A stretch of 64,000 nt of DNA, taken from the IMG/VR virus record IMGVR_UViG_3300022928_001147, positions 1-64,000 of that record. One strand, 5' to 3'. Origin of the DNA: a virus. Shown piece after piece: positions 22,128-38,187 of this stretch (position 1 is the stretch's first letter; each line of letters opens with the position of its first letter). The notes under the pieces are model-generated. The model searched no databases. It saw only the letters and a program-made list of their open reading frames with translations, and was not told the DNA's origin. Made by a program: the position numbers and the translations under genes.

Positions 22128-22156
22128 ATAATAACATCATTATTATTAATTGTCAA
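22128..22156 (-). promoter_or_regulatory. sigma70-type promoter, probably giving a leaderless mRNA
   Basis: TTGACA-N17-TATTAT with TGn; ATG begins 5 nt after the -10. Confidence 0.7.
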
Positions 22157-22828: not shown

Positions 22829-23593
22829 CTATTGTGTTTTACAATTAACCATTTTTAAATATATTTCCGCAAATGTAGCATGTGCAGATTTTCCGGGATG
22901 TAATAAGTCCCTTGCAGTTGCGTCGTTTACTACTGTTTTTTCTGTCTCTGTATCATTAAGATCTAGAACATACAATGGAATATTATTACTCTGACATAAA
23001 AATTTAATAGCATCTAAATTTCTAAGTTTATTTATATATGCTTCTTCTCTAGTAAAGAATCCAGATATAATATCTCTATGAGAAAAAACGCTGCTATTAG
23101 CTTTAACTTGAGACCATTGTTTACAGTAATAAAGTTCTCGCCTATCACTAAGGGGAAGCAAAAGGAACACTCTTTTTATATTTGCAAAGTTAATAAATCC
23201 TTTTAATACTCTATAACAAGTTTCGGGGCCGGCGCCTGGCACACCTAAGTTATAAAGTTTATAATCATTTAATTTTTTATTAACCAATGTCGGCCATATA
23301 TCTTTATAATTAACTTCTTCGCCTAATGTATAACTACAGCCTATGTATGCATTACATTCATCACCTTTAACAAAATCTTTATTTGATCTATATCCAAAGT
23401 TATTAAGTTTGTATGTTATACTATCTTCTTGCCAGTCTTTCATCTCGTTAGGTCTAGAAAGTTTGTTTTCATTAAACAGCTCGCGCTGATTTTTAAATAA
23501 AAAGTTAACTTCTTTTTTATAAAATACAGAAGAAACTATTGTATTTTGTCTTAATAAATCGTAGTCAAATGTATGTTCGTTAGGTAATATCAT
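22829..23593 (-). CDS. SGNH/GDSL-hydrolase-like protein
   Basis: NNFGYRS, GCSYT.G, NLGVPGAG, D..HPG. Confidence 0.7.
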   Translation of the reverse strand: MILPNEHTFDYDLLRQNTIVSSVFYKKEVNFLFKNQRELFNENKLSRPNEMKDWQEDSITYKLNNFGYRSNKDFVKGDECNAYIGCSYTLGEEVNYKDIWPTLVNKKLNDYKLYNLGVPGAGPETCYRVLKGFINFANIKRVFLLLPLSDRRELYYCKQWSQVKANSSVFSHRDIISGFFTREEAYINKLRNLDAIKFLCQSNNIPLYVLDLNDTETEKTVVNDATARDLLHPGKSAHATFAEIYLKMVNCKTQ

Positions 23594-24654
23594 TTTATTT
23601 CCTGCAAATGCGGTATTAGTTCTTTTAATTGTTGATTTCGCATATTATCTAATTCATAAGTGTATTTGTAGAATTTATCTAATAGCAAAGGATCAAATTT
23701 AGTTTGTATTATCTTTGACAATCTACTATTTTTCATAATTTCTAGTACATAGTCTTTGGCAGATTCTGATAATATATTTATTGCTAGAAAACTAGGTCGG
23801 ACAACTAAATTTGTACTCCAGGTGCAGTTGTGTTCATTAGCAAACTCTGTTAATTTATAATACTGGTGTATGTTATAATTTTGCAAAGTAGTGTGTAATA
23901 CAATTTTATTACTAATATGTTTTTTAAAAATGTTTAAATTTTCTACAAAGGTTTCCCAACTAGAGTTTCTTATGTAAGTGTATACTTCTTCAATTCCGTC
24001 AAAACTTAGCACAAGATTAAATTCTTTAAATTTACTAACTTTATTGATCCAACGGGGTATGCGAGTGCCGTTACTTACTACTTCTATTGAAATTTTATTA
24101 GCGTTGGGTAATTCAAGTAATTGCTCTATAAAATATTCTGTGCGAGGCATTATAAAAGGCTCGCCTCCTTTTAATTCTATAAAAAATTCTTTATTGCTAG
24201 CACGAATAAAAGATAATATTTTTTCTATATCTTCTTTTGATAATTCATGCACTGCGGTTCTTGCTGTTTGAAAATGTATACCTTTAGCTGCTAGTATCTT
24301 TGCTTCAGGTATCCAGCTGGTACTGTTTCCAGGTGTACACATTCTACAATTTAGATTGCAGTGATTACCGCAGTTAATATCTAACCTAAATTGATTAGAA
24401 GTTATCCATTCGTCATAACTGTCTCGGCGACTAGTACCGTTAGTTTCTTCGTGTGTTTTGCATAAAGAACAATTAGAATGCCACTGTGTTTGCATAGTAG
24501 TTATAATATCTTTATGTTGTGCTAACTCAAACACATCTTCTAGTCTTTCTAGCTCGCTCACATGAATTAGTTTGTCTGCACTTTGACAACAGATACGAAC
24601 AAACCCTTGCGGGTCTATTTGTATATTTTGTGTAAGTGCTTTACATGATATCAT
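23590..24654 (-). CDS. Radical SAM enzyme, N-terminal twitch domain (subfamily A)
   Basis: N-terminal C...CC...CxxC; CNLNCRMC; KGGEP. Confidence 0.9.
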   Translation of the reverse strand: MISCKALTQNIQIDPQGFVRICCQSADKLIHVSELERLEDVFELAQHKDIITTMQTQWHSNCSLCKTHEETNGTSRRDSYDEWITSNQFRLDINCGNHCNLNCRMCTPGNSTSWIPEAKILAAKGIHFQTARTAVHELSKEDIEKILSFIRASNKEFFIELKGGEPFIMPRTEYFIEQLLELPNANKISIEVVSNGTRIPRWINKVSKFKEFNLVLSFDGIEEVYTYIRNSSWETFVENLNIFKKHISNKIVLHTTLQNYNIHQYYKLTEFANEHNCTWSTNLVVRPSFLAINILSESAKDYVLEIMKNSRLSKIIQTKFDPLLLDKFYKYTYELDNMRNQQLKELIPHLQEIK

Positions 24655-25817
24655 TGTTTAAATATAGGAAATGTTGCAATTAAATTTTCATTGCGTGATT
24701 TGTCTAATGCAGTGTGATGCTGCCAAAACTTATCCCATAACTCCTTAGTGTATTCATCTTGTTTTACAAATGCTAGTATACTACTGATGCAACTGTAGTC
24801 ATACTTATCTAACTTATTAACAACTTTATTTTTTAAATCTGTTGGAAGTACACTTGCACTTAGATGTTCTGGATAGCGAACAAATGTAATTTCAGTTTCA
24901 ATGCCCATACTATCAAACCATTCTAATGCTTCAGGTATGTAATATACATTAGTGTTTTGTACTGTAATTTTAGCAACAATACGAATGTTAGGATATTTTT
25001 TAAGTTGTAATATATTGTCTTGTATTTGCTGCCATTTACTACCGCAGCGAATATAATCGTTTTGTTCCTTGTTCCCGTCAAGACTTACTGCAAGTTTTAC
25101 TGCTTTAAATTTACTCCAGTAATCTAATACGTTATATTTTTTAAATTTTAACATGCTTAAATTAGTAGCATAACTTAAAAATATTTCGTCTGCTCTGTCA
25201 ATTACTTTATCTAGAACCATATAATGTTTTTCGTCAAATAACGGCTCGCCACCTGCGAAATTTAATTCTAACACTTCAGTTAGATCAAGCCCTTCTATAA
25301 ATGCATCTTCATAGCCTAAATAAGGTTTTTTAGTAAGACCGAGATTGACTATATGTTCTTGCCAGTCTATAGGTTGCAAGTCACTAATCTTGTCCCATTC
25401 TTTAAACCAACTGGTACTATCATGAACGCTGCACATACGGCAAGCAAAGTTGCACAAGTTGCTTAGTTTAAGTTCAAGCCATTTTACTCCTGTTGACAAA
25501 CTGCCGTCTGGCGACATTATAGAAACTGCATGCTCATATTCGTCGAGCATTTTCTTACTTCGTTTGTTAAGATATTTTTGTCTTAAACTATCTACCCCTG
25601 CATCTTCGTCTTTATAACATACTTCACAATGCTTATTTCTGATGCCGTTAACCATATCGAGCCGTACTTGTTTTATAGTATCACAATTCCAAGCCTCTGT
25701 TAATGACATAGAGTTAGTATTTCCGATTCTAGGAAGACTACGACAACACAGTTTTATACTGCCGTCAGTCTTAGTACTTTGATGTACAAACGGTGCAGGA
25801 CAGATAGTTTTACTCAT
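24651..25817 (-). CDS. Radical SAM enzyme, N-terminal twitch domain (subfamily A)
   Basis: CPAPF..LCC..CEVC; CNFACRMC; AGGEP. Confidence 0.9.
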   Translation of the reverse strand: MSKTICPAPFVHQSTKTDGSIKLCCRSLPRIGNTNSMSLTEAWNCDTIKQVRLDMVNGIRNKHCEVCYKDEDAGVDSLRQKYLNKRSKKMLDEYEHAVSIMSPDGSLSTGVKWLELKLSNLCNFACRMCSVHDSTSWFKEWDKISDLQPIDWQEHIVNLGLTKKPYLGYEDAFIEGLDLTEVLELNFAGGEPLFDEKHYMVLDKVIDRADEIFLSYATNLSMLKFKKYNVLDYWSKFKAVKLAVSLDGNKEQNDYIRCGSKWQQIQDNILQLKKYPNIRIVAKITVQNTNVYYIPEALEWFDSMGIETEITFVRYPEHLSASVLPTDLKNKVVNKLDKYDYSCISSILAFVKQDEYTKELWDKFWQHHTALDKSRNENLIATFPIFKQ

Positions 25818-26410
25818 GTGTTCTCCATATACAATTGCTTGTTTTTAGGACGCAAAGGATCATTCTCGTTCCATCTATCACTTACTCGTAATTTAAATGT
25901 TATTCCATAAGTTTTAGCTAATGCTTGTGCTGCTTCTATTTGATGTTCATTAAAACTAAAAGGTATAAATTGCCAAACAATATCTTTGCCTAATATTGCA
26001 CCTAATTTCATTGCTGCCATACTGCTATCAAAGTCTATATTTTTTCTATACATATGTGCAGTATTTTTCAGGCCATCTACGCCAAATACAACTTTACCAT
26101 GTGTATAACTATTATAAAATTCTTTCCACCAGTCTAATTTTTTACCACTTCCATTAGTTGCCATAATAAAAAATACATTTTGTGTGTCAAAGAATTTTAT
26201 TATATCAATCAACTTTGGATGATATATCGGATCTCCTAGATTGCCGCTTAACAATACTTTTTTATAATTACCAGACTGAATAACTGTTTTGATAACATCA
26301 ACAGGTAAATCAGTTATTTGTATATTGCCTTTAAGATCTGTGCGCGGACACTTAGGACATTCTAACAAACATCTACGTGTTAATTCAAAATGCACTTTTT
26401 CACTATACAT
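25814..26410 (-). CDS. Radical SAM core lacking its C-terminal SPASM domain (subfamily C)
   Basis: HFELTRRCLLECPKC, GNLGDP, TNGS, F.VDGL..T..YR, WQFI.F..NEHQI. Confidence 0.85.
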   Translation of the reverse strand: MYSEKVHFELTRRCLLECPKCPRTDLKGNIQITDLPVDVIKTVIQSGNYKKVLLSGNLGDPIYHPKLIDIIKFFDTQNVFFIMATNGSGKKLDWWKEFYNSYTHGKVVFGVDGLKNTAHMYRKNIDFDSSMAAMKLGAILGKDIVWQFIPFSFNEHQIEAAQALAKTYGITFKLRVSDRWNENDPLRPKNKQLYMENT

Positions 26411-26699
26411 CTTCGACAACCTTTGTTAACGGATTCTTTAAATTATCTGCAATTGCTCCGCAATGTGTTTTACAAGTAGGTCCAGCAGATTCAGGATTAG
26501 CTATTAAATTGTCTATCCAGTTTTTTAAATGTACATTAACAATTTCATCATAGGGCGTTTTTGTTATATCAAATTTATCACATTCAAACTGTTGATATTC
26601 GTTACGCTCAGGCCTATCACTGAGAAAACAACAAGGACGCACATGCCCTGTTGCAGTAATAAACTGATCTTTCCCTCTTGCACATTTAGGATAAATCAT
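26403..26699 (-). CDS. Stand-alone SPASM/twitch Fe-S domain protein
   Basis: PKC....FITA.G.V.PCCF...C...CG matches the C-terminal domain of 40113..41177. Confidence 0.8.
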   Translation of the reverse strand: MIYPKCARGKDQFITATGHVRPCCFLSDRPERNEYQQFECDKFDITKTPYDEIVNVHLKNWIDNLIANPESAGPTCKTHCGAIADNLKNPLTKVVEDV

Positions 26700-27322
26700 T
26701 GTTTCTCCAATATAAAAAACAAATTTTCAGGATATTCAGTAAGTTTGAAATTATAATTTTTAGCAAATTCTTTCACAGCAATTTCAAGTTCGGGCCAATC
26801 CTTGTTTTTATAGTCGTCGCCACATATAACTTTCGTATCTTTAAAATATTCTAAAACTTTTTTTGTGTGTTCGTAGGTGTGTTCCGAATCGAGATATATA
26901 GCATCATATGTCGAACAATACTTTTTATAAATGTACTGGTGTGTAGACATCGACGTAACATTAGATAACAATTTATATTTAGGATGATGCTCCATTACAA
27001 AATTCCAGACTTCTTTATGAGACATATTTTTTAACATATTAACTATGTTCGACCAGATATCCAAATTTTTGCCAAATTTGGGCATTCTATCAGAACGAAC
27101 AAAATCAGGAATTTCTGATGCATCAACATTAAAGGAATCTAACACGTCGTATGTGGTATCGTCAGGCAAAACGTCTAACCACGCCCAAGTACTCCTTCCA
27201 AAAAGCACACCAATTTCTAAAAACTTTGCATTTTTAGGTAGTAGTTTTGCAACTTCTGCGTATCGCTGATGCTGATATATACTTGTAAATCCAGGGACTT
27301 GTCTTGCTTGAATTATTTCCAT
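26696..27322 (-). CDS. Class I SAM-dependent methyltransferase (Methyltransf_24-like), copy 2
   Basis: FLEIGV..GRS, D.IYLD..HTYE, ICGDDY. Confidence 0.85.
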   Translation of the reverse strand: MEIIQARQVPGFTSIYQHQRYAEVAKLLPKNAKFLEIGVLFGRSTWAWLDVLPDDTTYDVLDSFNVDASEIPDFVRSDRMPKFGKNLDIWSNIVNMLKNMSHKEVWNFVMEHHPKYKLLSNVTSMSTHQYIYKKYCSTYDAIYLDSEHTYEHTKKVLEYFKDTKVICGDDYKNKDWPELEIAVKEFAKNYNFKLTEYPENLFFILEKQ

Positions 27323-27438
27323 TTAGTAGTCCTCACGTCACTATCAGCTCCGCCGCTTAAACGAATTCCTATTCCTTTATGCTGTGCAGCATCTAAAGGA
27401 ATATTAATAGTAGAATTATTATAACGATACACAGTCAT
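27313..27438 (-). pseudogene. Chimeric minigene: PP-loop ATPase N-terminus fused to a radical-SAM C-terminal tail
   Basis: MTVYRYNNSTINIPLDAAQHKGIGIRLSGGADS|DVRTTKWK*; compare IIVRLSGGFDS (31285 gene) and DVRATKWR* (28058 gene). Confidence 0.8.
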
Positions 27439-28067
27439 TGATTTTCCAATATAAAAAATAAATTTTTACGATGTTCAGTAAGTTTAAAATTATATTTTTT
27501 AGCAAATTCTTTTACAGCTTTTTCTACGCCTGGCCAATCTGGATTACCATAATCGTCCCCACATATAACTTTAGTATTTTTAAAGTGCTCTAGAGTTTGC
27601 ATTACACCGTCATAAGATTGATTAGCATCTATAAATATAGCATCGTAATTAACTCCGTATTCGTCTTGAATATACTGCTGAAGACGCATTGTCAATACAA
27701 ATTTAACTATATGAAACTTAGGATGATGTTGTAATACAAAATTCCAAACTTCTCTATGAGACATCGTTTTTAATAAATTAGCTATACCTTCCCAGCAATC
27801 TAAATGATTTCCAGGAGTTGACGGTTTTCTACCAGCATTTTTATTAAATTCTGGTATATCTTCTGGTCCAATATCAAATTTGTCCAATGCATCATAGTGT
27901 GCATCTCCAGGCAATGCATCTAACCACGCCCAAGAGCTCCTACCAAGGGAAACTCCTATTTCTAAAAATCTAGGTTTCTCAGGTAATAAGTCAACTACAT
28001 CTTTATATAATTTGTGTTGATACATGCTAGTAAACCCAGGCACATATCGTGCTAAAGTTATCTCCAT
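27435..28067 (-). CDS. Class I SAM-dependent methyltransferase, copy 1
   Basis: Clear paralog of 26696..27322 (VPGFTS.YQH, GRS.WAWLD.LP, TKVICGDDY, NLFFILE.Q). Confidence 0.85.
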   Translation of the reverse strand: MEITLARYVPGFTSMYQHKLYKDVVDLLPEKPRFLEIGVSLGRSSWAWLDALPGDAHYDALDKFDIGPEDIPEFNKNAGRKPSTPGNHLDCWEGIANLLKTMSHREVWNFVLQHHPKFHIVKFVLTMRLQQYIQDEYGVNYDAIFIDANQSYDGVMQTLEHFKNTKVICGDDYGNPDWPGVEKAVKEFAKKYNFKLTEHRKNLFFILENQ

Positions 28068-29101
28068 TTTGTTGCCCTTACATCATGGCTACAGAAACAA
28101 TGCTTGACTTTGCACACTGTGGGTTCTACAGTCCAATCAAAAGTTGTACAATTATCAGTTAAATAATTGCCAAACACTTTTCCCTGTCTACAACTAGCAT
28201 CGGCACTAACCATTCCATTAGAACCTATATAGAGAACATCTATACCTACATTACACTTCCAGCCAGTCCAAGAATTTTCACCCGATGCGGCCATTGCTTC
28301 AGGTATAGATTTAATATAATCTGTTTCATTATATCGAAATGTAATACCACTGCCCATACTTGTAGACTGTTTGCGTATAATAGTGTTGTCTTGGCGCAAC
28401 CATTCTAACTGTTCTTGAGTATAAGTCACCATCCTTAAATGACTTCCTATATCGTCACTTTTATAATTTTCTCTAATTGGTTTTTTAGCAAGTACAGCAA
28501 ACGTACCTTTTTCTTTTAGCAATTCGTATGTTTCAACAACATACTCCCATTTACTAGCAAGTGCAAGAACAAGAGCTCCTGTTTTAACACCTTTCGAATC
28601 TAATAGATTACACACTTCTAAACAATGATCTTTGTCTGCAAATTCAGGATGAAAGCTATATACGATATCAGAAAACATTCCGCCATACTGGTCCCACCAA
28701 CGCACTGACCTTGCTCCGTTGGTAACTAGTCTTACATAATTGTTATCGTACTTTTTAAGTTCTGTAACAAATTTCTCAATGTCTTTCCATACTGTAACTT
28801 CACCGCCTATAAGTTCCCATACTATAGAAGTCTTGTGTTCTTTGTATACTCGATTAATTTCAGCAACAATTTCTAGTGCCTTTTCTACAGGGGGCCAAGG
28901 ATTAGTAGCACCGTAGTGCTCAGGTGTACAATAGCTACATTTATAAGTGCAAGTATTTCCTAGCGCCCAATTAATACTAAGTGTATTTGACTTTCTGTTA
29001 TAACTTTTAATTACATCAACAGGAAGCTCGCCAGCAGCAACTCTTGTTCTAAAATCGTCACGCTGATCTCCCCACAATGTTATTAAGTTGTTATATTCCA
29101 T
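28058..29101 (-). CDS. Radical SAM enzyme, C-terminal twitch-like domain (subfamily B)
   Basis: WALGNTCTYKCSYC, GGE.T, SFHPE, W.GWKC..G...C...C....C.C. Confidence 0.9.
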   Translation of the reverse strand: MEYNNLITLWGDQRDDFRTRVAAGELPVDVIKSYNRKSNTLSINWALGNTCTYKCSYCTPEHYGATNPWPPVEKALEIVAEINRVYKEHKTSIVWELIGGEVTVWKDIEKFVTELKKYDNNYVRLVTNGARSVRWWDQYGGMFSDIVYSFHPEFADKDHCLEVCNLLDSKGVKTGALVLALASKWEYVVETYELLKEKGTFAVLAKKPIRENYKSDDIGSHLRMVTYTQEQLEWLRQDNTIIRKQSTSMGSGITFRYNETDYIKSIPEAMAASGENSWTGWKCNVGIDVLYIGSNGMVSADASCRQGKVFGNYLTDNCTTFDWTVEPTVCKVKHCFCSHDVRATKWR

Positions 29102-30500
29102 CAAAAATACCCTTCATTTCTGGAAAAGTTTCATAAAAACTATTTCCTCTATGTGCATCGTTGAGTTCTAAGAATTCTTTCATTTCAGGTAGTCGAACAC
29201 TCCAGTCCTCGCTTTCCATAAATTTTAACATGCCTTCTAAACGACTGATGCCATAACTTGCTGCGAGCCAATCGTCTTTAGTAACTTTGCCTTTATGCCA
29301 TTCAGGAATACCTTTTTCCCAGTTAGCTTCCCACCATGGATAAAATTCTTCATACTTTTTGCGACATGCTGCTTTAAATTCTTTAGGCAAGACTTTAACA
29401 TTAAGATGAGGTGGATGATAAACAAAGTGATAATTTACCGCACCTGCACCAAACGGCCACATGTTGATTTTCTTGAATCCTTCTTCTAACTTCCAACGAA
29501 TAAAATCAGGAATGTAATAGATGTTTAATGCTTGTACTGCACATGCAATTGTAATTTCAGTGTTTGACGGCGTTTGTGTGTCTAAAATGTGAAACACTTC
29601 TTTAGTTCGTTCCCATTTACTAGGATAGCGTATATAGTCATTCATTTCGTGTATACTGTCTACACTATAATGGAACCGCACAAGTTTAAACTCTTTCCAG
29701 AGATCAAACAAATCTTCACGCCATTCTACACCATTTGAGTTGTAGCGTAATTCAAGGTTTTTAGCATAGCCCATTTTAATAGCATGTTCAAGAATCTCAT
29801 AGTGTTCTTCAATAATAAGACTTTCGCCGCCAGCAAAATAAATTTGTTGCATGCTTGGCATCTGTTCATAGAACTGTTTCCAAAATGTAGGATTTTGTTT
29901 ATGCCAATTGTAACTACTACCATTGTAGCTGCCTTTGTCCTGCCATTGCATTGTTTCTTTTAGACTTGCATTTTCTACAGCAGGAAAGATTGCTTTATAA
30001 TCTTTGATCCATCCCGAGCTGTCGTGCGGGCTACACATAATACATGCTAATTGGCACTTAGTTCCGAATCGCAAATCAATATATGCAAGCTGGGGAGGAA
30101 CACTTCCGTCTTCTTTAGTATCAGCAATTAATTTATCAACATCAACACGCTGACTCCAATACTTAGTTTCCCACATACGCTTTGAATTATGTCCAGCAGC
30201 TTCTTCTTTGTAGCATTTTAAACAACTAGGCGGTTTTTCTCCTGCAAGCATTTGCTTACGCACGTTTTTCATATATGTGCTGTTCCAAGCAGTTTCAAAA
30301 TCGCTTACGTTTAAGTTGTTAGGTTTGCCGTCTTCTGTTTTAAGAATACCAACTTGGCCGCCGTGTTCTTTGTCATTAGTTGCACCTACACTGCTTGCAT
30401 TTGCAGTACAGCATACTCGCATACTACCATCTGGTCGAGTACTAAGATGCACCCACGGCAATAAACAAAATGTGTTAGAGGGTAATTTGTGATCAGACAT
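29091..30500 (-). CDS. Radical SAM enzyme, N-terminal twitch domain (subfamily A)
   Basis: FCLLPW..RVCC..CLKC; CQLACIMC; AGGE. Confidence 0.9.
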   Translation of the reverse strand: MSDHKLPSNTFCLLPWVHLSTRPDGSMRVCCTANASSVGATNDKEHGGQVGILKTEDGKPNNLNVSDFETAWNSTYMKNVRKQMLAGEKPPSCLKCYKEEAAGHNSKRMWETKYWSQRVDVDKLIADTKEDGSVPPQLAYIDLRFGTKCQLACIMCSPHDSSGWIKDYKAIFPAVENASLKETMQWQDKGSYNGSSYNWHKQNPTFWKQFYEQMPSMQQIYFAGGESLIIEEHYEILEHAIKMGYAKNLELRYNSNGVEWREDLFDLWKEFKLVRFHYSVDSIHEMNDYIRYPSKWERTKEVFHILDTQTPSNTEITIACAVQALNIYYIPDFIRWKLEEGFKKINMWPFGAGAVNYHFVYHPPHLNVKVLPKEFKAACRKKYEEFYPWWEANWEKGIPEWHKGKVTKDDWLAASYGISRLEGMLKFMESEDWSVRLPEMKEFLELNDAHRGNSFYETFPEMKGIFDGI

Positions 30501-30585
30501 ATTTTTTAAACCTTTTATTTAAATTTAGTAAGTTGGTTTTTCTAATGTTATCTACTGTATTGTAACATAATGGCGGTTTATTCAT
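30493..30585 (-). pseudogene. Collapsed radical-SAM minigene (30 aa)
   Basis: MNKPPLCY|NTVDNIRKTNLLNLNKRFKKYV* matches the first and last residues of 35871..37013 (MIQDKPLCY...NSLDAVRQTNLVDIDERFKDYV*). Confidence 0.8.
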
Positions 30586-31186
30586 TAATTCTCTCTTTGA
30601 TTTCTTGATAAAGGAGTCGCCCAAACTCTTTATGACCAGCTGGTCCTGGGTGGCTATTATCCAATGCTTTCGGATGCTCTCGACGTATTTTATTAATACT
30701 TGTTCTACACAATTGAACATCATTCCAATTAAAATCGTGTTTATACATCCCAGATCCAAAAGCATGAAAATTTAATATGTTTCGTTTAGTTAAAAAATAA
30801 TGAGCATAATTAAGTCTAGTGTACATGTCTACCTTCATATCATAAAAATCATGGACATTGCGGTAAAAAAATCTAGATGTTTTGTCGGTTTGCCAAGCAT
30901 TAATATGTTTTATACCATCTTCAGTTATAATACAATACCTGTCAAAATGAGACCATAATACAACTACCATGTCTTCATCTTGATAATTAAAATTTTGTAG
31001 GTTGTATAAAATTTCTTTATTACTTGATCCAGATACTGCACAATTAACAAGTTCTCTGTTAAGACGATTTGCAACTTCATTCGGCCATGCAAACTTGCTT
31101 GGCAGACTTCCATTATGGCCATTTTCCCAACAATCTTCTAAACCAGTGCCGTATGTTAAACTGCATCCAAATGTAATTAACCTCAT
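30578..31186 (-). CDS. SGNH/GDSL-hydrolase-like protein
   Basis: LITFGCSLT.G, N.AVSGSSN, D.SHPG..GH. Confidence 0.75.
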   Translation of the reverse strand: MRLITFGCSLTYGTGLEDCWENGHNGSLPSKFAWPNEVANRLNRELVNCAVSGSSNKEILYNLQNFNYQDEDMVVVLWSHFDRYCIITEDGIKHINAWQTDKTSRFFYRNVHDFYDMKVDMYTRLNYAHYFLTKRNILNFHAFGSGMYKHDFNWNDVQLCRTSINKIRREHPKALDNSHPGPAGHKEFGRLLYQEIKERINE

Positions 31187-31190
31187 AAAT

Positions 31191-31295
31191 TTACTCTTCA
31201 AATAATTCTTTATATTCGGACACTATGTCAAGTATAGTTTGATTTCTATTTTTGTCTTTCGATGGTAATTTTCTATCAGCTATATTATTTTTCAT
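31191..31295 (-). pseudogene. Collapsed radical-SAM minigene (34 aa)
   Basis: MKNNIADRKLPSK|DKNRNQTILDIVSEYKELFEE*; head resembles MSDHKLPSN (29091 gene), tail resembles DNLRNQNILDIVPEYKGLFNE (32027 gene). Confidence 0.75.
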
Positions 31296-32040
31296 AGTTT
31301 TTATTTGCCCATTCTCTTTCGTAACACCACCAACATATAGGAGATGTCTTACAAGTTGTTGTAAAATTATCTGTTGCTTCTCTAAGTCCTTCGCAGCTTC
31401 TTGTAATAGATAACATATCTTGCAAAATGCCAAATCGATCTGCTAAGGAAAATACTATTCTTTTATCAAAATTTCTAAAAGGTTCTATTTCATGACCAAA
31501 CTGTTTAGTGTTATGATACACTGACCTTGAATTAGCTATTGCTCCAATTATTAGAGGTACTTGTCTATTTTTTTCAGGATTATGTTTTTCTTCGCCTATA
31601 TGTACATCTGGATTTTTTGTTACTCCGTTATACGAAACAACATCAGTGTCTAAATTATAATCTTTAATAATTTTTAATAATAACTCATCCTGTGCGTTAC
31701 TATAAATTTTTCCAGTATCGTTATCTAACCACCAATTGTCAACGTCGAGTCGTTGTGTAGGTTTTACATCTAAATTAGGAAATTTGTCTTTGACATAATC
31801 TAATATAGTGTCAACTACAGGATACGGATTTGCTTTATCCATAGCTGGATCATTATTAGGATTGTTTATCTTTCTCACAGTTAAAGGATAAATCGACGGT
31901 GATAAGTTATTTTCGTTCAACAGAAATGCAATAGTGTATAACATTACTGCACTATCAAATCCGCCACTTAGCCGTACGATTATATTAGAACAATCAAGTT
32001 TAAAGGCCACCTTTCCATAAGCAGTTTTATAAAAATTCAT
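31285..32040 (-). CDS. QueC-like PP-loop ATPase
   Basis: IIVRLSGGFDSA PP-loop; PF...DK; TRSC...C....CWWC.ER putative Zn site. Confidence 0.75.
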   Translation of the reverse strand: MNFYKTAYGKVAFKLDCSNIIVRLSGGFDSAVMLYTIAFLLNENNLSPSIYPLTVRKINNPNNDPAMDKANPYPVVDTILDYVKDKFPNLDVKPTQRLDVDNWWLDNDTGKIYSNAQDELLLKIIKDYNLDTDVVSYNGVTKNPDVHIGEEKHNPEKNRQVPLIIGAIANSRSVYHNTKQFGHEIEPFRNFDKRIVFSLADRFGILQDMLSITRSCEGLREATDNFTTTCKTSPICWWCYEREWANKNYEK

Positions 32041-33334
32041 TAAATAATCCTTTATATTCTGGAACAATATCCAAAATATTTTGGTTTCTTAAATTGTCTA
32101 ATTTAACTGTGTAATCAATAAAGTTTGACAATTTGTCGCTTTCGTCTTTCCCTTGCATGTAGTTACTTATACTATCAAGTATCTTGCAAGCACGTTTATT
32201 GGTAGCATCGTCAAAATTATCAAATGTTGTCTTACATTTTTCATAATGTGCAACTATGTCATCTTTAATATCCTGAGGCAATACTCTTACACTGCTGTAC
32301 CAAGGCTTGTGACACATATGATGTGACATAATTTTAATATTCTTTCCTGCTCCTATGCGTTTGAATTCTTGTTTGACTATCCAGTTAATAAATTCTGGAA
32401 TGTGATATACGTTTAAGTTTGTAACAGTACACGCTATCCAAGCATCTACATTAGGAAGAGTATCAACTATTTTTAAATTCTTTTCTATTGCACTCCATTT
32501 AGCAGGGTAACGTTGGTATTCTAATACTTTCCCCATACCGTCGATGCTTGCACCAATTTTTATTCTTTTAAACTTTTCCCATAACACTAATACCTTAGTA
32601 GGAATGTTAGTTAAATTAGTATTGTATTCTATAGTTATGCGATGAGCATTATTACTATCAATACACTTTTGTAAAAACTCATAATGGCGTTCTATCATTA
32701 GAGGTTCGCCACCTGCCATGTAAACATGTTCAATGTTTTTTATGTTCGATTCAATATGTTCCCAGAAAGTTGTACTATAGTGCCAATCATACGCATCTGT
32801 AACCCATCTGCCATTCTCATTTTTCTCAAGTGTAACCTTGCCATGTGTGTCATCCCATTTATTACCGTACATGTTAACCCAGTCTTTATACCAAGTATGG
32901 CTATCTTCAGGGCCGCACATTCGACAAGCTAAATTACATAAATTTCCAAAGCGTAAATCGTAATACACTAACGGATTTTTATCAATATTAATTTCTCCGT
33001 CTACTGTTGTCGAATCAATAATTGAATCAATTGATGTATTCCATATATCATTTTCGTACATCCGTCTACTTCTTAGTCCGCTCTCTTCTTCTTGTTGACA
33101 GCGTGTACAATCGGGGTGCCATTTGCCTTCAAGCATTGTCTTGCGAACGTCTTTAATCAATGCTGCATTGCGGGCTTCGTCTAAAGAATCTGAACCTGCG
33201 TTATAAGGAACGCCATTGTCTTTCTTTAATGTACCACGGCCGGGTGTAGAGTTCATTTGACAGCAGACTCTTACTGTTCCGTTATTTTGTACTGCTTGAA
33301 AGTTCCAAGGAATAGGACAAAATGTTTTAGGCAT
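32027..33334 (-). CDS. Radical SAM enzyme, N-terminal twitch domain (subfamily A)
   Basis: FCPIPW..RVCC..CTRC; CNLACRMC; AGGEP. Confidence 0.9.
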   Translation of the reverse strand: MPKTFCPIPWNFQAVQNNGTVRVCCQMNSTPGRGTLKKDNGVPYNAGSDSLDEARNAALIKDVRKTMLEGKWHPDCTRCQQEEESGLRSRRMYENDIWNTSIDSIIDSTTVDGEINIDKNPLVYYDLRFGNLCNLACRMCGPEDSHTWYKDWVNMYGNKWDDTHGKVTLEKNENGRWVTDAYDWHYSTTFWEHIESNIKNIEHVYMAGGEPLMIERHYEFLQKCIDSNNAHRITIEYNTNLTNIPTKVLVLWEKFKRIKIGASIDGMGKVLEYQRYPAKWSAIEKNLKIVDTLPNVDAWIACTVTNLNVYHIPEFINWIVKQEFKRIGAGKNIKIMSHHMCHKPWYSSVRVLPQDIKDDIVAHYEKCKTTFDNFDDATNKRACKILDSISNYMQGKDESDKLSNFIDYTVKLDNLRNQNILDIVPEYKGLFNEFL

Positions 33335-34607
33335 TCCAATATTCCTTAAATTCAGGATAGTAATCTAATACATTTGTATTGTTATACGCATCTTGAACTT
33401 GCATATTGCGAATAAAAGAGTCCCAATCTTTATCATATAGGTCTTCTGCATTCATATAATTAATTAATTTTTTTCCTATCACAGGAATTCTACGCTGATA
33501 GTAGTCTATTAAAGAATGCTTTTGCGTATATTGCAGTGCAATTGTTTCTAAATTTTCAATAAACTCATTGTACTCTTGAGTAATTTGTTCTTTAAGTGCT
33601 TTAGGCAATATTCTCGGATTTAATGATGACGGATATTGCACTAAACTTGCATGTACTCTAACATTAAGTTGCATAAAGTATTTAAATACGTCAACAATTC
33701 TCGTCATATTTAATACACTGGTAGTACATGTTGCTTGCAAGAATACATTATCAAGTGTTTTGTTTATTTGTTTAATGTTTTCTTCAACTTTATCAATGTT
33801 TCCGTTAACTCGAATATACGGATATATGTCAGGTGTAGCATCAATACTAACTAACACTCCTACATTTTTAAATTTTTTCCATAACGGCAATACGTTATTA
33901 CCTTTATGTTCTAATGTCGATAAGTTGCTGTTGTAGTTTAATACAATATTTTCTGCATAGTCTTCTAAACCTTCTAAAAATTTATAATGTTTTTCATGAT
34001 ATAAAGGTTCGCCGCCTGTGATTAGAATTTCTTGTAAGTGAGGTGCTAATATTTCTATTTCATCAATAATGTCAGTATTCAATTTTACAGAAGGTTTATT
34101 AGAATCCTTAACTAATTCGGCCATTTCAGGAGACCTTGCTGCTGCTTTACTCCATAATGAACTGTATACTGGGCTGCAATGCCTACACATTAGATTGCAA
34201 GTATTATCAAACCGTATTTCAACACTTTTTAGTTGTTCAATTGAGTACGAAAAATCATCATTAATAGTACTTCTAACATAAGTTTCTAATTGCTTAGGCA
34301 CTACATCATTTTTTGATTCGTTAAATACAATTTGATCATTTTCAATTTTCCAAGATTGTAGGGTTTCCTGTCTTGTACTCATTACTCCGCTCGATTCTAA
34401 GTCCCAACAGCTTCTGCATCCTTCTGATTTAATACCCGAAAGTAATTCTTGTCTTAACTTTTTTGTTTCATCGTTATTGAAAATTTCAGTTAATGAAGAT
34501 GTTGTGCTGTTTCCAAGTGTAGTCTGGCCGCGCCAACATGCACACACTCTTCCTTCGTGTTTTAAATTTTGATGTACAAACGGCATTATACAAAACGTAT
34601 CACTCAT
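33327..34607 (-). CDS. Radical SAM enzyme, N-terminal twitch domain (subfamily A)
   Basis: FCIMPF..CAC..CRSC; CNLMCRHC; TGGEP. Confidence 0.9.
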   Translation of the reverse strand: MSDTFCIMPFVHQNLKHEGRVCACWRGQTTLGNSTTSSLTEIFNNDETKKLRQELLSGIKSEGCRSCWDLESSGVMSTRQETLQSWKIENDQIVFNESKNDVVPKQLETYVRSTINDDFSYSIEQLKSVEIRFDNTCNLMCRHCSPVYSSLWSKAAARSPEMAELVKDSNKPSVKLNTDIIDEIEILAPHLQEILITGGEPLYHEKHYKFLEGLEDYAENIVLNYNSNLSTLEHKGNNVLPLWKKFKNVGVLVSIDATPDIYPYIRVNGNIDKVEENIKQINKTLDNVFLQATCTTSVLNMTRIVDVFKYFMQLNVRVHASLVQYPSSLNPRILPKALKEQITQEYNEFIENLETIALQYTQKHSLIDYYQRRIPVIGKKLINYMNAEDLYDKDWDSFIRNMQVQDAYNNTNVLDYYPEFKEYWNA

Positions 34608-35878
34608 TTAATATTTCCTTTAATTTCATTGTACTTATATCCTAAATTTTTCTCTAAGTATTGATATAACTCAGGAATTTGTTTTTCTAAACTTTGAGAT
34701 CTTAATAAATCTACATCTTTGGTATATTTTATAAACACATCTGTTTCTTTATTTGAAGTACTACCATTTAAATATTGTATAATCTTGTTGTGATGTCTCC
34801 TAATAATCTTTTGTTCGTTGATAGGTCTATTGATACTATCTATATACGATTTAAACTTTTCAACTATTAAATGTTTAGCAGGTAATATATCTATCGCAAT
34901 GTAACTTGGTGAATATACCGTGTTCATAACAACTTTTCCCGGACCATCATTAATTGTAATTAATCCTTTATTTGAACGTTGATCTATCCAATATTCTAAT
35001 AACGTGGACATATTAAAAATATTATATGCGCAAAGTGTAGGTGTTAATATAACTGCAACATTATCATGATTACATTCAAAATCTAACCAACTATCAATGC
35101 TCGATTGTACATCTAGCCAATTTGAATTTTGTCTTACATAATCATTAACTTCACCAGTGCCGTCGATTGACATCCATATTTCTGCTTTTTTAAATTTAGC
35201 TAATGTAGACATTAATTTTTCTTTCGGAGACCAACTTGAGTTTGTAAAGATTTCAAGAGTAATTTGTTTATGGTGCCCGCCTTCTATTATAACATCTAAG
35301 AATTTTACAAAATCAGGGTGTAGCATAGGTTCGCCACCTGTAAATTTTATATGCACTGTGTTTTTAAAATCTTCAGGCTTCCAATTAAATCCTATATTAA
35401 ATCGTTGAGAATACAATTCTCTATCGGGATAGTGTTTTACTAATTCCTTATCATCTTCAAACCAAGATGTTGATAGTTGAGAATTGCAAGTACGGCATGC
35501 TAAATTACAATAATTACCAAATGTAACTTCAAGAAATTTTAATGAAATAGTGTCTTCGTTTACAGTAGAATCAACATTGTAATCATCATTATATCCTGTT
35601 CGCATACTTTGATTTGTAATTAAATCTTCTTTGTAGCATTTTGCACACCCTGACAATTTTTCTCCATTTAGCATAGCCTGTCGTAATTGTTCGAACGGCT
35701 GTGATGCTAAAATGTCGTCAACATTTTTAAAATCACTTAATTTTTTATTAGAAAAATCAATAAATTTATCTTCGCCTGTATCATGCATGAGAAATCGGCA
35801 ACACGGTTTAACTAATCCGTTTGGTTTTACTGAAAAATGCATCCACGGAAGTACACACAATGTATCCTTTTTAGACAT
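34604..35878 (-). CDS. Radical SAM enzyme, N-terminal twitch domain (subfamily A)
   Basis: LCVLPW..KPCC..CAKC; CNLACRTC; TGGEP. Confidence 0.9.
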   Translation of the reverse strand: MSKKDTLCVLPWMHFSVKPNGLVKPCCRFLMHDTGEDKFIDFSNKKLSDFKNVDDILASQPFEQLRQAMLNGEKLSGCAKCYKEDLITNQSMRTGYNDDYNVDSTVNEDTISLKFLEVTFGNYCNLACRTCNSQLSTSWFEDDKELVKHYPDRELYSQRFNIGFNWKPEDFKNTVHIKFTGGEPMLHPDFVKFLDVIIEGGHHKQITLEIFTNSSWSPKEKLMSTLAKFKKAEIWMSIDGTGEVNDYVRQNSNWLDVQSSIDSWLDFECNHDNVAVILTPTLCAYNIFNMSTLLEYWIDQRSNKGLITINDGPGKVVMNTVYSPSYIAIDILPAKHLIVEKFKSYIDSINRPINEQKIIRRHHNKIIQYLNGSTSNKETDVFIKYTKDVDLLRSQSLEKQIPELYQYLEKNLGYKYNEIKGNIK

Positions 35879-37013
35879 AATCTTTAAACCTCTCGTCGAT
35901 ATCTACTAAGTTAGTTTGGCGGACAGCATCTAAACTGTTATTAAATTCTTTAAATGCATTATACGCTTCCTCACTGTAGCTAACAGAATTAAGAAGCGAC
36001 ATAATATCATTTACATCATAATTATTATTATTTCCCCAAGCAGTTATATCAGCTTTTGCTTGCTCAAGATGTGCAGGAAGTACTGCACTTACTTCTGAAG
36101 TATAAGATTCACTTAGATCAAACATGGTACCAAAACTGTATCCGTTATCTTGTAATTCTTTAAACCAAGCCAACAAGTCAGTTATATGAAATATATTATA
36201 TGGCATTAATACAATGTTAAAACCGTAATGTTTTGCCATGTCCTTTTTAAATATTTCTTCAATAGTTTTCTTTGTTTTGCTCCAATTTGCATTTGTTCTA
36301 ACATATTCATAAGCTGCGCCAACAGCATCAATACTAAAGACTACATGGATGTCATCAAATTGTTCCATTATCTTTCTAAATTTAGAATTAAGATTTGTAC
36401 CATTAGTAGTAAAGCGCAATGATGGCAATTCAGTATAATTTTCTAAAATTGCCTCAAGAAATTCTACAACTAACGGATCAATAGTAGGTTCTCCACCTAA
36501 TATTTTAATCTGTTTTAATTGTATAGAACTTGTAAAATTTTTAAACTCGTCAAAGTTTTTTACAATTTTCTCCGGAGCAGTAAACCATTTTTGTAAATGA
36601 GCGTGTTGTTGAAATTCAGTAGTTATTTGACTACTTGCATTAGGCACACACATTCTGCATTTTAAGTTACAATGATTGCTGGGACGGTAGTCTAAAAACA
36701 TTGGGCCCTTTGTTGTATTACCAAATTCAATATCAAGCTCTACATCAACTTTGCTGAAATGTTTATCCCATATCCATGTTTCGTCTTTAAGATTTTTTTC
36801 TACCTTATTTTTACAAAACTTACACTTATCAGGCCACTGCTGTGCAAGAAGTTGTTTGCGCATATCTTGCATCTCGTCACTTACCCAGTACTCATCAGGA
36901 GTAAGTGTTTTATACTTTTCTTTTTTAGCTACACAACAGGGTGCATACTCATTATAGCCTGTCGAATACATTCCAATAAACGGAGCGTAGCATAGTGGCT
37001 TATCTTGGATCAT
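35871..37013 (-). CDS. Radical SAM enzyme, N-terminal twitch domain (subfamily A)
   Basis: LCYAPF..APCC..CKFC; CNLKCRMC; LGGEP. Confidence 0.9.
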   Translation of the reverse strand: MIQDKPLCYAPFIGMYSTGYNEYAPCCVAKKEKYKTLTPDEYWVSDEMQDMRKQLLAQQWPDKCKFCKNKVEKNLKDETWIWDKHFSKVDVELDIEFGNTTKGPMFLDYRPSNHCNLKCRMCVPNASSQITTEFQQHAHLQKWFTAPEKIVKNFDEFKNFTSSIQLKQIKILGGEPTIDPLVVEFLEAILENYTELPSLRFTTNGTNLNSKFRKIMEQFDDIHVVFSIDAVGAAYEYVRTNANWSKTKKTIEEIFKKDMAKHYGFNIVLMPYNIFHITDLLAWFKELQDNGYSFGTMFDLSESYTSEVSAVLPAHLEQAKADITAWGNNNNYDVNDIMSLLNSVSYSEEAYNAFKEFNNSLDAVRQTNLVDIDERFKDYV

Positions 37014-38187
37014 ACTTGTCGAGTCCCATTTCTTGGAAACTATACTTCCAGTCTATTTTTCTTACAGCATCTAAGTCATCTAAATATTGCATTAATGTTG
37101 TACCGTGCTCTTCCCACAAATCTTTTTCCATCATATGATTAATATAAAAAGGAAAATCTTCGCGGTCTCGCTCTTTAAAGTCATAATTATTAATCTTGTT
37201 TAGTATAACATCTTTTATGTCTTTGGGCAAGTTCTGTGCGCTCATATGTATAGGCCATTCTACATGATTACAGAATAAAAACTTGATATTTGGAAATTCT
37301 TTTCGAATTATGTCATAAGTTTCTACAAGATAGAACATACTTACATTAGAACAAGTCCATTGTACACCTACATCGAAGTTAGGTTTTCCTTTAATAAACT
37401 TATCTATTAATCGTAGCTGTTCAACATACACATCCCACTTAATTGGAAATCTAAAATATTCGCCTGCTCGCTCTAGTGCATCAACGCTTAAACGTAATAC
37501 TACTGATTTAAACTTGCTCAACTGTTCCAATCTGTCTTCTGTAATTAATGTACCATTACTAACATATGCTAAATTTACATCTTTAGCATATTCTGTTTCA
37601 GATAAATCTTTTAAAAATTCATTATGTCGTTTATTAGCAAAACTTTCGCCGCCAAGAAAATTATAGCGTTTTGTTTGATGCCATGTATTCCGTAAATGGT
37701 TCCAAAAGCCGTGTTCTTGTTCGATCCATTTATTGTTAATTTGATAATTTTCAGTGTTAGGATACTTGTCTAATAGCGCCTTGTCTTCTTGCCACTTGCT
37801 GCTTGCTCCTGTGCCACAGTGGATACATTTTAGATTACAAATCATACCAGTACGAACATCGATGTGAGGTGGCTCATATGGCACGCTTCCGTCATCTGCT
37901 GTTTGATCTATAAGATGCTTATATTGATCATACCAAAATCCGTTTTCATCCATACGTTTACTAATGCCATCAAGACTTTCTACGTACTTACATCGCTTAC
38001 AATTTTCAGGCCATTCGCCGTTTAAGAAATCTTTTCTAATTTCTTTAAAATATTCGCTGTTCCATTCAGTTGATATGTCACTGTCTTTAAGTTTTGTTGG
38101 AGTTTTTACGCCGCTGTAACCACATACTCGAGGTCGACCAAACGTATTAGTACTAAAATTTATCCAGGGAAGTATGCATGGTTTCAT
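37000..38187 (-). CDS. Radical SAM enzyme, N-terminal twitch domain (subfamily A)
   Basis: PCILPW..RVC..CKRC; CNLKCIHC; LGGE. Confidence 0.9.
   Translation of the reverse strand: MKPCILPWINFSTNTFGRPRVCGYSGVKTPTKLKDSDISTEWNSEYFKEIRKDFLNGEWPENCKRCKYVESLDGISKRMDENGFWYDQYKHLIDQTADDGSVPYEPPHIDVRTGMICNLKCIHCGTGASSKWQEDKALLDKYPNTENYQINNKWIEQEHGFWNHLRNTWHQTKRYNFLGGESFANKRHNEFLKDLSETEYAKDVNLAYVSNGTLITEDRLEQLSKFKSVVLRLSVDALERAGEYFRFPIKWDVYVEQLRLIDKFIKGKPNFDVGVQWTCSNVSMFYLVETYDIIRKEFPNIKFLFCNHVEWPIHMSAQNLPKDIKDVILNKINNYDFKERDREDFPFYINHMMEKDLWEEHGTTLMQYLDDLDAVRKIDWKYSFQEMGLDKYDPR

What the first reader, a model, noticed from the sequence alone, without database searches (positions are those of the whole stretch)
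27313..31295. Accordion array: enzymes deleted as in-frame head-to-tail coupler minigenes
Seen: three separate remnants in 4 kb are all in frame, stop-free, 30-41 aa long, and keep start/stop coupling with their neighbours. Random deletions would be in frame only about one time in three each. Inference: selection (or a mechanism) removes individual tailoring enzymes while preserving operon translation, giving heritable switching of the modification pattern. Alternatively, the retained C-terminal helices could act as dominant-negative or assembly peptides, or as substrates.
Basis: inference. Interest (0 to 1): 0.82.

Follow-up and report, generated by a model that had tools for sequence, protein, structure and literature searches.

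The report
In-frame recombination scars in phage operon
Three tiny genes in a marine phage's cluster of sugar-tailoring-type enzymes are leftover junctions from gene-cassette swapping between related phages. All three stay in frame and keep the gene chain unbroken, but this looks like ordinary phage mosaicism caught in the act, not a dedicated switching mechanism.

Summary
Three minus-strand mini-ORFs exist: A (27313-27438, 41 aa), B (30493-30585, 30 aa) and C (31191-31295, 34 aa). Each is stop-free and joins the start of one enzyme gene to the end of another. They fill the only three non-coding-sized gaps in a chain of 18 ORFs with tightly packed stops and starts.

The reading "single enzymes deleted" holds at most for B.
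- A joins the first 33 codons of a PP-loop gene to the last 8 codons of a class-B radical-SAM gene. Intact 231-aa versions of that PP-loop gene, some with an identical head, lie on 26 public contigs. The scar is followed by a second methyltransferase only 57% identical to the first.
- C joins a rSAM-469-type head to a rSAM-435-type tail.
- Relatives in four other studies lack the whole 807-bp block (C tail, SGNH gene, B, new 469 head).

These are scars of non-homologous joins between diverged phage arrays in a hypervariable island beside the baseplate and fibre genes.

Selection for an unbroken ribosome relay is plausible but unproven. In 240 related loci I found only one more head-tail collapse, also in frame, one coupled tail duplicate and three non-bridging remnants. 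A would stay coupled in any frame.

No dedicated mechanism and no conserved peptide family was found. This scan's other notes on this same genome already described these scars; nothing similar was noted on other DNA.

The parts
27313..27438 (-). Minigene A (41 aa): the first 33 codons of a PP-loop (QueC-like) gene fused in frame to the last 8 codons of a class-B radical-SAM gene
   Evidence: The head is 33/33 identical to the intact 231-aa proteins P0043, P0045 and P0046. A relative's contig stops matching exactly at 27339|27338.
26701..27338 (-). Segment that replaces 595 nt of the PP-loop gene body found in relatives: the rSAM-348-type tail (27 nt) plus methyltransferase MT-208
   Evidence: X15 record 7 and X14 record 1 carry 595/695 other letters here; homology to the rSAM-348-tail/MT-210-start junction begins at DVR.
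26696..27322 (-). MT-208, the second Methyltransf_24 gene, 57% identical to MT-210
27435..28067 (-). MT-210 methyltransferase; its stop overlaps A's ATG
28058..29104 (-). rSAM-348 (class-B radical SAM); its last 8-9 codons are the paralogue of A's tail
29091..30500 (-). rSAM-469, a conserved anchor gene (83-90% aa identity in the 80 best of 246 matching IMG/VR stretches). In relatives its start codon sits where C's start codon is
30493..30585 (-). Minigene B (30 aa): 8 head codons plus 22 tail codons. Both ends best match the rSAM-380 paralogue
   Evidence: No full-length parent was found.
30578..31186 (-). SGNH/GDSL hydrolase-like gene carried between C and B
   Evidence: In locus L161 a 38%-identical gene directly follows a 435-type radical SAM.
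31191..31295 (-). Minigene C (34 aa): a rSAM-469-type head (14 codons) fused to a rSAM-435-type tail (20 codons)
   Evidence: The tail DNA is 73% identical to the rSAM-435 tail (repeat D3). MKNNI is the start of rSAM-469 in relatives.
30474..31280 (-). 807-bp block absent from relatives: C codons 6-34, the SGNH gene, B, and the first 9 codons of rSAM-469. Relatives have 21 (or 17) other letters in its place
   Evidence: the joint 30473->31281 is seen in runs X14, X15, X19 and X21, which come from four studies.
31285..32040 (-). PP-loop-251 gene (SGGFDS motif); its stop overlaps C's ATG
32027..33334 (-). rSAM-435, the paralogue whose tail resembles C's tail
35871..37013 (-). rSAM-380, the paralogue whose two ends resemble B. 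Its junction with the next gene (YV*/MS) matches the B/rSAM-469 junction
22829..38187 (-). Chain of 18 ORFs. Sixteen of its 17 junctions overlap by 4-17 nt and one has a 4-nt spacer. The three minigenes close its only gaps

Best explanation
The three mini-ORFs are scars of non-homologous (or microhomology) recombination between diverged, probably co-infecting, relatives of this T4-like marine myovirus. These relatives carry different orders of enzyme cassettes in a hypervariable island next to the baseplate and fibre genes.

Each join fused the first 8-33 codons of one gene to the last 8-22 codons of another. The upstream gene's stop and the downstream gene's initiation region were left untouched.

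- Scar A is recent. An array of type MT-210 / PP-loop-231 / SPASM-98 was joined, after the SGGADS motif of the PP-loop gene, to an array of type class-B rSAM / MT-208 / SPASM-98.
- Scar C joined the head of the resident rSAM-469 to the tail of a 435-type rSAM that preceded an SGNH gene.
- Scar B is the collapse of a 380-type rSAM.
- The block holding C's tail, the SGNH gene and B now moves in and out of the population as one unit.

Inferred, not shown: the scars persist as open, coupled mini-ORFs because ribosomes that start at the retained ATG end at the retained stop on top of the next start. The relay through the overlapping genes is then not interrupted. The peptides themselves are by-products.
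For: - Head and tail homologies to paralogues.
- A's head is 33/33 identical to intact 231-aa PP-loop proteins (P0043, P0045, P0046); the five near-identical variants of this protein lie on 26 contigs, and A itself is on 23 contigs.
- A relative's contig matches from 29652 to 27339, the exact head/tail junction. It then carries 595 other letters and rejoins at 26700. Its identity is 97.5% to the left of the junction and 91.8% to the right.
- MT-208 and MT-210 are only 57% identical, so MT-208 is not a fresh duplicate.
- The joint 30473->31281 replaces 807 nt by 21 letters in four studies. In those relatives rSAM-469 reads MKNNIIKEAPSETFC from C's own ATG.
- C's head type and tail type never occur in one protein among 203 family-A sequences.
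- A 435-type rSAM directly followed by an SGNH-like gene exists in L161.
- In the chain of 18 ORFs, all junctions overlap by 4-17 nt except one with a 4-nt spacer, and SD-like motifs are weak. Just downstream of the chain, g221 and g323 have spacers and AGGAG, and g374 has a 30-nt spacer and its own sigma70-like promoter but no SD-like motif.
- An independent in-frame, doubly coupled collapse of a PP-loop gene occurs in L115. The intact gene is syntenic in L088 and about a dozen other loci.
- A coupled tail-duplicate minigene occurs in L087.
- Two non-bridging tail remnants (L144, L173) lie just before a gene with its own TTGACA-17-TATAAT promoter.
- Cassette-level variation of radical-SAM genes in this kind of island is already described (PMC7029224).
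Against: - The donor arrays were not recovered, so the direction of events (gain by unequal crossover or loss by deletion) is inferred for B and C.
- The frame argument rests on four junctions. It also carries ascertainment bias, because this window was picked for the pattern.
- A would terminate within 10 nt of the next ATG in all three frames, so frame is not needed there.
- One non-bridging head remnant lies inside an operon-like context (L024/L030).
- MT-208 has a fair SD (GAGGA) and could initiate on its own.
- Nothing explains why the remnants are so short, unless breakpoints cluster near gene ends or the scars were trimmed later.
Confidence: 0.6

Rival explanations
1. The scars are neutral and in frame by chance. 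They are the same recombination scars, but the frame and the coupling have no selective meaning. They are simply too young to have decayed.
For: - Only 3-4 events are known, giving p about 0.04-0.01 before any correction for how the window was chosen.
- A's head is 100% identical to intact alleles, so that scar is very recent.
- A stays coupled in any frame.
- Such scars are rare in 240 related loci.
- AT-rich sequence gives bridging ORFs in 10-15% of shuffles.
Against: - All three scars here, plus L115 and L087, are bridged.
- Out-of-frame versions of B and C would stop 36-59 nt before the next start.
- Two of the three non-bridging remnants found sit where a promoter makes coupling irrelevant.
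Confidence: 0.25
2. One reading: selection or a dedicated mechanism removes single tailoring enzymes as in-frame head-to-tail minigenes. The collapsed and full forms switch the modification pattern heritably.
For: - B's two ends both match one paralogue.
- L115 is a clean single-gene in-frame collapse.
- Full and scarred alleles of the A locus coexist in public data.
Against: - A and C are chimeras of two different genes.
- The alternative alleles are a replacement and a whole-block absence, not full versions of the collapsed genes.
- No recombinase, repeats or motif were found at the junctions.
- A deletion cannot revert, so this is not a switch.
- Only one further case was found in 3.7 Mb.
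Confidence: 0.1
3. The mini-ORFs are functional small proteins: dominant-negative or docking peptides made of the conserved C-terminal helix, or substrate peptides for the radical-SAM/SPASM enzymes.
For: - The family-A tail motif (LD..R.QNILDIVP.YK.LF) is strongly conserved.
- SPASM-type enzymes often act on peptides (general knowledge).
Against: - No homologous small ORF exists in 240 related loci or in two protein libraries of 1.8 and 5.8 billion sequences.
- Four other populations lack B and C.
- A is a truncated enzyme head plus 8 residues.
- The sequences derive from enzyme termini, not from a peptide family.
Confidence: 0.04
4. The junctions are metagenome assembly chimeras between co-occurring strains.
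For: The sample holds several strain variants of this array.
Against: - Exact A and C peptides occur on 23 contigs each, from JGI for both and also from Logan and ENA assemblies for A, the longest 104.6 kb.
- 13 runs hold 97-99% of the words of the stretch.
- The junctions share no long repeat that could mislead an assembler.
Confidence: 0.01

Closest known systems
Host recognition cluster (hypervariable island) of pelagimyophages and cyanomyophages (Zaragoza-Solas et al. 2020, PMC7029224)
   Same: It is a large non-syntenic island within the structural region of T4-like marine myoviruses, with fibre genes and LPS-type enzymes. Close genomes there differ by added radical-SAM gene cassettes, read as gradual divergence. 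Here the array sits downstream of baseplate-wedge and hub genes, a 4949-aa ORF and fibre-like genes.
   Different: That paper does not describe junction scars or their reading frames. Membership of this phage in the pelagimyophages was not shown: cultured phages gave no close match.
PeSL-mediated modular shuffling in T4-type phages (Arbiol et al. 2010, PMC2839356; Comeau et al. 2014, PMC4122927)
   Same: Insertions, deletions and replacements of single-gene cassettes between very close T4-type phages, concentrated in hyperplastic regions.
   Different: PeSL shuffling uses homologous recombination at intergenic promoter/stem-loop motifs and leaves no gene fragments. Here the joints lie inside coding ends of a promoter-free, overlapping-gene chain. 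No promoter/stem-loop motif is present at the joints.
Phage mosaicism by illegitimate recombination filtered by selection (the Hendrix/Hatfull model; from my own knowledge, cited in PMC2839356 and PMC3029335)
   Same: Random non-homologous joins occur, and the survivors are those that do not damage function. Joints therefore cluster at gene boundaries.
   Different: Here the joints lie a few codons inside the sacrificed genes, and the leftover is an open, start/stop-coupled mini-ORF. That adds a possible translational constraint to the filter.
Engineered non-polar in-frame deletions (standard bacterial genetics; from my own knowledge)
   Same: A few head and tail codons are kept in frame, so that downstream genes of an operon are still expressed.
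   Different: These are natural events, not designed. Two of the three fuse different genes.
Poxvirus 'gene accordions' (tandem amplification and contraction of one gene; from my own knowledge)
   Different: There are no tandem identical copies here. The two methyltransferases are 57% identical, and the changes are cassette replacements.

Membership tests
In-frame head-to-tail collapse of a single gene | Head and tail derive from the same gene | tested here: not met
   A has a PP-loop head and a class-B rSAM tail. C has a 469-type head and a 435-type tail, and none of 203 family-A proteins has both. B is compatible with a single gene, since both ends best match rSAM-380, but no parent was found. 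L115 meets the feature.
In-frame head-to-tail collapse of a single gene | A full-length allele occupies the same position in close relatives | tested here: inconclusive
   At A, an intact 231-aa gene starts at A's ATG in relatives, but what replaced its body is a foreign tail plus MT-208. At B and C, relatives lack the whole block and no full alleles were seen.
Translationally coupled operon | Consecutive co-oriented genes with overlapping or abutting stop and start codons | tested here: met
   The chain has 18 ORFs from 38187 to 22829. Its junctions overlap by 4-17 nt, except one with a 4-nt spacer.
Translationally coupled operon | Downstream translation depends on upstream translation | not testable with these tools
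   Only indirect evidence is available. SD-like motifs are weak at the overlapped starts. Of the three spaced starts just downstream of the chain, two (g221, g323) have AGGAG and one (g374) has none.
PeSL cassette shuffling (T4-type) | A promoter plus stem-loop motif at the indel boundaries | tested here: not met
   No terminator-like hairpin lies at any scar. The only promoter-like hit in a scar is a 10/12 match inside C's tail, and promoter-like hits in the region (111) exceed the shuffled mean (82.7, sd 8.4) by about 3 sd in this AT-rich DNA.
Host recognition cluster of T4-like marine myophages | A hypervariable island in the structural region, after the baseplate genes and a giant VrlC-like gene, with fibre genes | tested here: inconclusive
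   Baseplate wedge and hub genes, a 4949-aa ORF and fibre-like genes lie upstream. Anchors are conserved while cassettes are shuffled in the 80 related loci examined (of 246 matching stretches). The gp14 neck gene and VrlC identity were not tested.
RiPP precursor peptide next to a radical-SAM/SPASM maturase | A conserved small-peptide family co-occurring with the enzyme | tested here: not met
   Nothing beyond self-hits was found for the minigenes tested (B, C; A matched only the intact 231-aa gene), and none of the three occurs in the 240 related loci. The sequences are enzyme termini.
Gene accordion (tandem amplification) | Near-identical tandem copies made by homologous unequal crossover | tested here: not met
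   MT-208 and MT-210 are 57% identical in protein and 76-81% identical in the best DNA stretches.

The most novel reading that the evidence does not exclude
In long phage operons that rely on stop/start overlap, recombination joints that fall inside genes may survive preferentially as in-frame head-tail mini-ORFs. These would act as passive 'translational bridges' that keep the ribosome relay unbroken. This would be a general rule governing how hypervariable enzyme arrays gain and lose cassettes. It would also leave a readable signature for dating cassette turnover.
Probability: 0.25. Interest if true: 0.55.

Novelty: new variant of a known kind. Interest (0 to 1): 0.4.

Why it matters
The locus is an unusually clear snapshot of how a phage hypervariable island is rebuilt. 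Three joints lie within 4 kb, and both parental states of one joint are still present in public metagenomes at 100% identity. It shows that cassette turnover in these radical-SAM arrays proceeds by non-homologous joins between diverged arrays, not only by exchange at intergenic motifs.

If the frame bias proves general, it would add translation continuity to the known filters on phage mosaicism. It would also explain part of the many tiny ORFs in phage genomes. As it stands, it is a well-documented example of a known process, not a new mechanism.

Tried and rejected
**Searches for close relatives**
The 22-47 kb Logan/ENA contigs that carry the closest relatives (P0002-P0004, P0043) could therefore not be fetched.
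- DNA search of cultured phages found nothing. The best protein hits of rSAM-469 in cultured phages are about 21% identical.
- IMG/VR scans with the SGNH gene and with MT-210 found no relatives.
- Exact DNA patterns for the 21-letter joint and for A's PP-loop motif found nothing in IMG/VR.
- The metagenome scan with the PP-loop alignment gave relatives no closer than 45%.
- The genome search cannot draw relatives for a virus record.

**Searches for parents of B and C**
- No parent of C was found among 1.84 billion representatives; only self-hits came back.

**Remnant surveys**
- A tail HMM found few orphan tails.
- Several apparent remnants in relatives turned out to be frameshifts or split genes, not deletion scars (L133, L168, L182, L115:1987-2104, and the 85-103-aa SPASM ORFs).
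- Antisense hits of the form LNCSAKGSNS were artefacts.

**Other checks**
- Microhomology at the junctions could not be judged, because the donors are unknown.
- The apparent clustering of breakpoints at the TFC head motif and at the start of the tail motif may only reflect where homology can be recognised.
- Depth gaps in the laid contigs were not used as evidence.
- Earlier scan notes found by words concerned unrelated prophage decay.
Full report
**What is there**

The window is the first 64 kb of an 81.5-kb IMG/VR virus record. Nearly identical copies occur in 13 salt-marsh runs.

On the minus strand, T4-like baseplate wedge and hub genes lie upstream. A 4949-aa ORF and fibre-like genes follow them. 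Further downstream comes a long array of radical-SAM enzymes. These have an N-terminal SPASM-like Cys domain ("family A"), a C-terminal one, or none. Interspersed with them are a PP-loop (QueC-like) gene, an SGNH/GDSL gene, two Methyltransf_24 genes and a nitroreductase.

From 38187 to 22829 there are 18 ORFs. Sixteen of their 17 junctions overlap by 4-17 nt, and one has a 4-nt spacer. The three mini-ORFs of the finding are part of this chain. Together with a 98-aa SPASM ORF, they fill its only gaps of 40 nt or more between large ORFs.

**Check of the observation**

| Minigene | Coordinates (minus strand) | Length | Upstream junction | Downstream junction |
|---|---|---|---|---|
| A | 27438->27313 | 41 aa | ATGA overlap with MT-210 stop | 10-nt overlap with MT-208 start |
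| B | 30585->30493 | 30 aa | 8-nt overlap with SGNH/GDSL gene | 8-nt overlap with rSAM-469 |
| C | 31295->31191 | 34 aa | 11-nt overlap with PP-loop stop | 4-nt spacer before SGNH/GDSL ATG |

Their ends match enzyme termini:
- B's last 22 residues match the C-terminus of rSAM-380 (E 7e-6), and its PLCY matches residues 6-9 of the same protein.
- C's last 20 residues match the C-terminus of rSAM-435 (E 5e-10). The DNA is 73% identical over 63 nt.
- A reads ...IRLSGGADS|DVRTTKWK. This is a PP-loop head followed by the end of rSAM-348.

Shuffled gaps give a bridging ORF in 10-15% of trials each. The A and C peptides were called on 23 contigs each from different assemblies, so they are not assembly chimeras.

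**What the alleles in other samples show**

*Scar A.* Laying Logan contigs of four runs from four other studies on 25000-34000 gave two structural differences. In the first, an X15 contig 97.5% identical to the window matches from 29652 down to 27339. That position is exactly the head/tail junction of A. The contig then has 595 other letters and rejoins at 26700, at 91.8% identity. X14 shows the same 695-letter interval.

A word-based search with A returned a 231-aa protein. Some variants of this protein have the first 33 residues identical to A. The protein continues SGGADS-AILLAML... and is a PP-loop paralogue of the 251-aa gene. Its five near-identical variants lie on 26 contigs.

In this phage the body of that gene is replaced by 27 nt of a rSAM-348-type tail plus MT-208. 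MT-208 is only 57% identical to MT-210. It is therefore not a fresh tandem duplicate, although the truncation itself is very recent.

The simplest reading is a non-homologous join between two diverged array types. One has MT-210 / PP-loop-231 / SPASM-98. The other has class-B rSAM / MT-208 / SPASM-98. The drop in identity to the right of the joint fits this, but it is an inference.

*Scars B and C.* In the second difference, all four runs hold contigs in which 30473 is joined to 31281 with 21 other letters. An abundant, more distant relative joins 30483 to 31287 with 17 letters. One of these contigs is 99% identical on the PP-loop side.

Read on the minus strand, these relatives have the PP-loop gene directly coupled to rSAM-469. 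Its start is C's own ATG (MKNNIIKEAPSETFC...). The 807-bp block holding C's codons 6-34, the SGNH gene, B and the present first nine codons of rSAM-469 is absent. No full-length alleles of "collapsed" genes were seen at these sites.

**Are they single collapsed genes?**

- For C, no. Its head is of the rSAM-469-orthologue type (for example MTDRKLPSETFC). Its tail is of the rSAM-435 type (LDKIRNQNILDIVPQYKDLF). Among 203 distinct family-A proteins from related loci, none combines the two.
- A 435-type gene directly followed by an SGNH-like gene exists in L161. This suggests that C's tail and the SGNH gene are an old neighbour pair.
- For A, no, as shown above.
- For B, possibly. Both ends best match rSAM-380. 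The B/rSAM-469 junction repeats the rSAM-380/rSAM-424 junction (YV*/MS). No parent was found in 5.8 billion proteins.

**How general is it?**

rSAM-469 has orthologues of 83-90% identity in the 80 best of 246 matching IMG/VR stretches. So do two other anchors (g354, g374), while almost everything between them differs. This matches the radical-SAM cassette variation reported for the host recognition cluster of pelagimyophages (PMC7029224).

I surveyed 240 related loci (3.7 Mb). The methods were a tail HMM, three-frame gap peptides against all large proteins, and tblastn of all heads and tails. The survey found:
- **L115:11379-11651.** One further head-plus-tail collapse. A PP-loop gene directly after rSAM-469 has lost residues 52-241. 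It is in frame, with its ATG overlapping the upstream end and an ATGA overlap downstream. The intact gene is syntenic in L088 and about a dozen other loci.
- **L087:4649-4754.** One coupled 35-aa duplicate of a gene tail.
- **L144 and L173.** Two non-bridging tail remnants, both just before a gene with its own TTGACA-17-TATAAT promoter.
- **L024/L030.** One head-only remnant.

Other candidates were frameshifts or split genes. No out-of-frame head-plus-tail pair was detected. Short heads would escape detection in any frame, however. None of A, B or C occurs in any other locus, and none has small-protein homologues.

**Mechanism**

*Shown:*
- The scars are junctions between termini of different genes.
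- They coincide with cassette-level polymorphisms among close relatives.
- They carry no repeats, terminators or promoter/stem-loop motifs.

*Inferred:*
- The scars arise by illegitimate recombination between diverged genomes.
- Survivors must spare the upstream stop and the downstream initiation region, which lies inside the retained tail. For example, GAGGA lies 9 nt before the MT-208 ATG.
- An open frame from the retained ATG to the retained stop keeps termination on top of the next start.

The chain's overlapped starts have weak or no SD-like motifs. Just downstream of the chain, the spaced genes g221 and g323 have AGGAG. The third spaced gene, g374, has a 30-nt spacer and its own sigma70-like promoter but no SD-like motif. 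This fits reliance on coupling.

The frame test is weak, however. Out-of-frame versions of B and C would stop 36-59 nt early, but A would stop within 10 nt of the next ATG in every frame. Four of four in-frame fusions gives p of about 0.01 before allowing for how the window was selected.

**Comparison and verdict**

This is phage mosaicism of the classical kind: random joins filtered by function. It occurs in a known type of hypervariable island. It differs from PeSL-mediated shuffling (PMC2839356, PMC4122927), because the joints lie inside coding ends of a promoter-free overlapping chain. The natural "non-polar in-frame scar" is a neat variant and may reflect a translational constraint.

It is not an accordion of single-enzyme deletions, not a switch, and not a peptide family. 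Interest is moderate.

Noticed in passing
window 26403-26699 and 25814-26419 (minus strand): A 98-aa SPASM-like ORF comes before a 201-aa radical-SAM core ORF, with a 17-nt overlap and a TTG start. In relatives an 85-103-aa SPASM ORF comes after a core ORF (L156, L165, L174, L181, L183, L185, L211). In L197 the two are one 361-aa protein. This is a recurrent split, here with permuted gene order. It may be a two-subunit enzyme or another scar.
   Followed up: partly
L115:11379-11651, compared with L088:11388-12233: An independent in-frame collapse of a PP-loop gene (residues 52-241 lost, including the SGGADS motif) lies directly after the rSAM-469 orthologue. It is coupled on both sides. Flanking genes are 86-88% identical between the two loci; the remnant is 59-74% identical.
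   Followed up: yes
L087:4649-4754: A 35-aa minigene is a duplicate (85% identity) of the last 34 codons of a 281-aa gene two genes upstream. Its ATG overlaps the stop of an inserted 232-aa gene. Its stop overlaps the TTG start of a conserved small gene.
   Followed up: partly
window about 44552-44755 (minus strand), and nearly all related loci: A conserved gene of about 74 aa (LD.N.L.LR.LQ.ESARALS...GPGKD.KL) with a TTG start lies upstream of the g354 radical-SAM anchor. The preceding gene always ends with the same ...LELEKY.RF tail. In L067 the small gene is read as part of the next gene.
   Followed up: no
window 22128-22156 (minus strand); L144 and L173 upstream of the g374 orthologue: A conserved sigma70-like promoter (TTGACA-17-TAT(A/T)AT) lies directly before the g374 radical-SAM anchor. 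It marks the end of the overlapped chain.
   Followed up: partly
window 57102-64000, continuing to 71951 of the record: A single 4949-aa ORF lies between the baseplate genes and the fibre-like genes. CheckV rates the 81.5-kb record as only 3% complete.
   Followed up: no
window 20998-22122, 29091-30500 and 40113-41177, compared with loci L083-L162: Three radical-SAM genes (g374, rSAM-469, g354) are conserved at 66-93% aa identity across the 80 best related IMG/VR loci (246 stretches matched rSAM-469), while the genes between them are almost completely different. The N-terminal 5-12 residues of rSAM-469 are hypervariable even between near-identical strains.
   Followed up: partly
window 31202-31231 (minus strand): The ILDIV codons of C's tail spell TTGACA, followed 18 nt later by AATTAT. 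This is a promoter-like match just before the SGNH gene and is probably chance.
   Followed up: no
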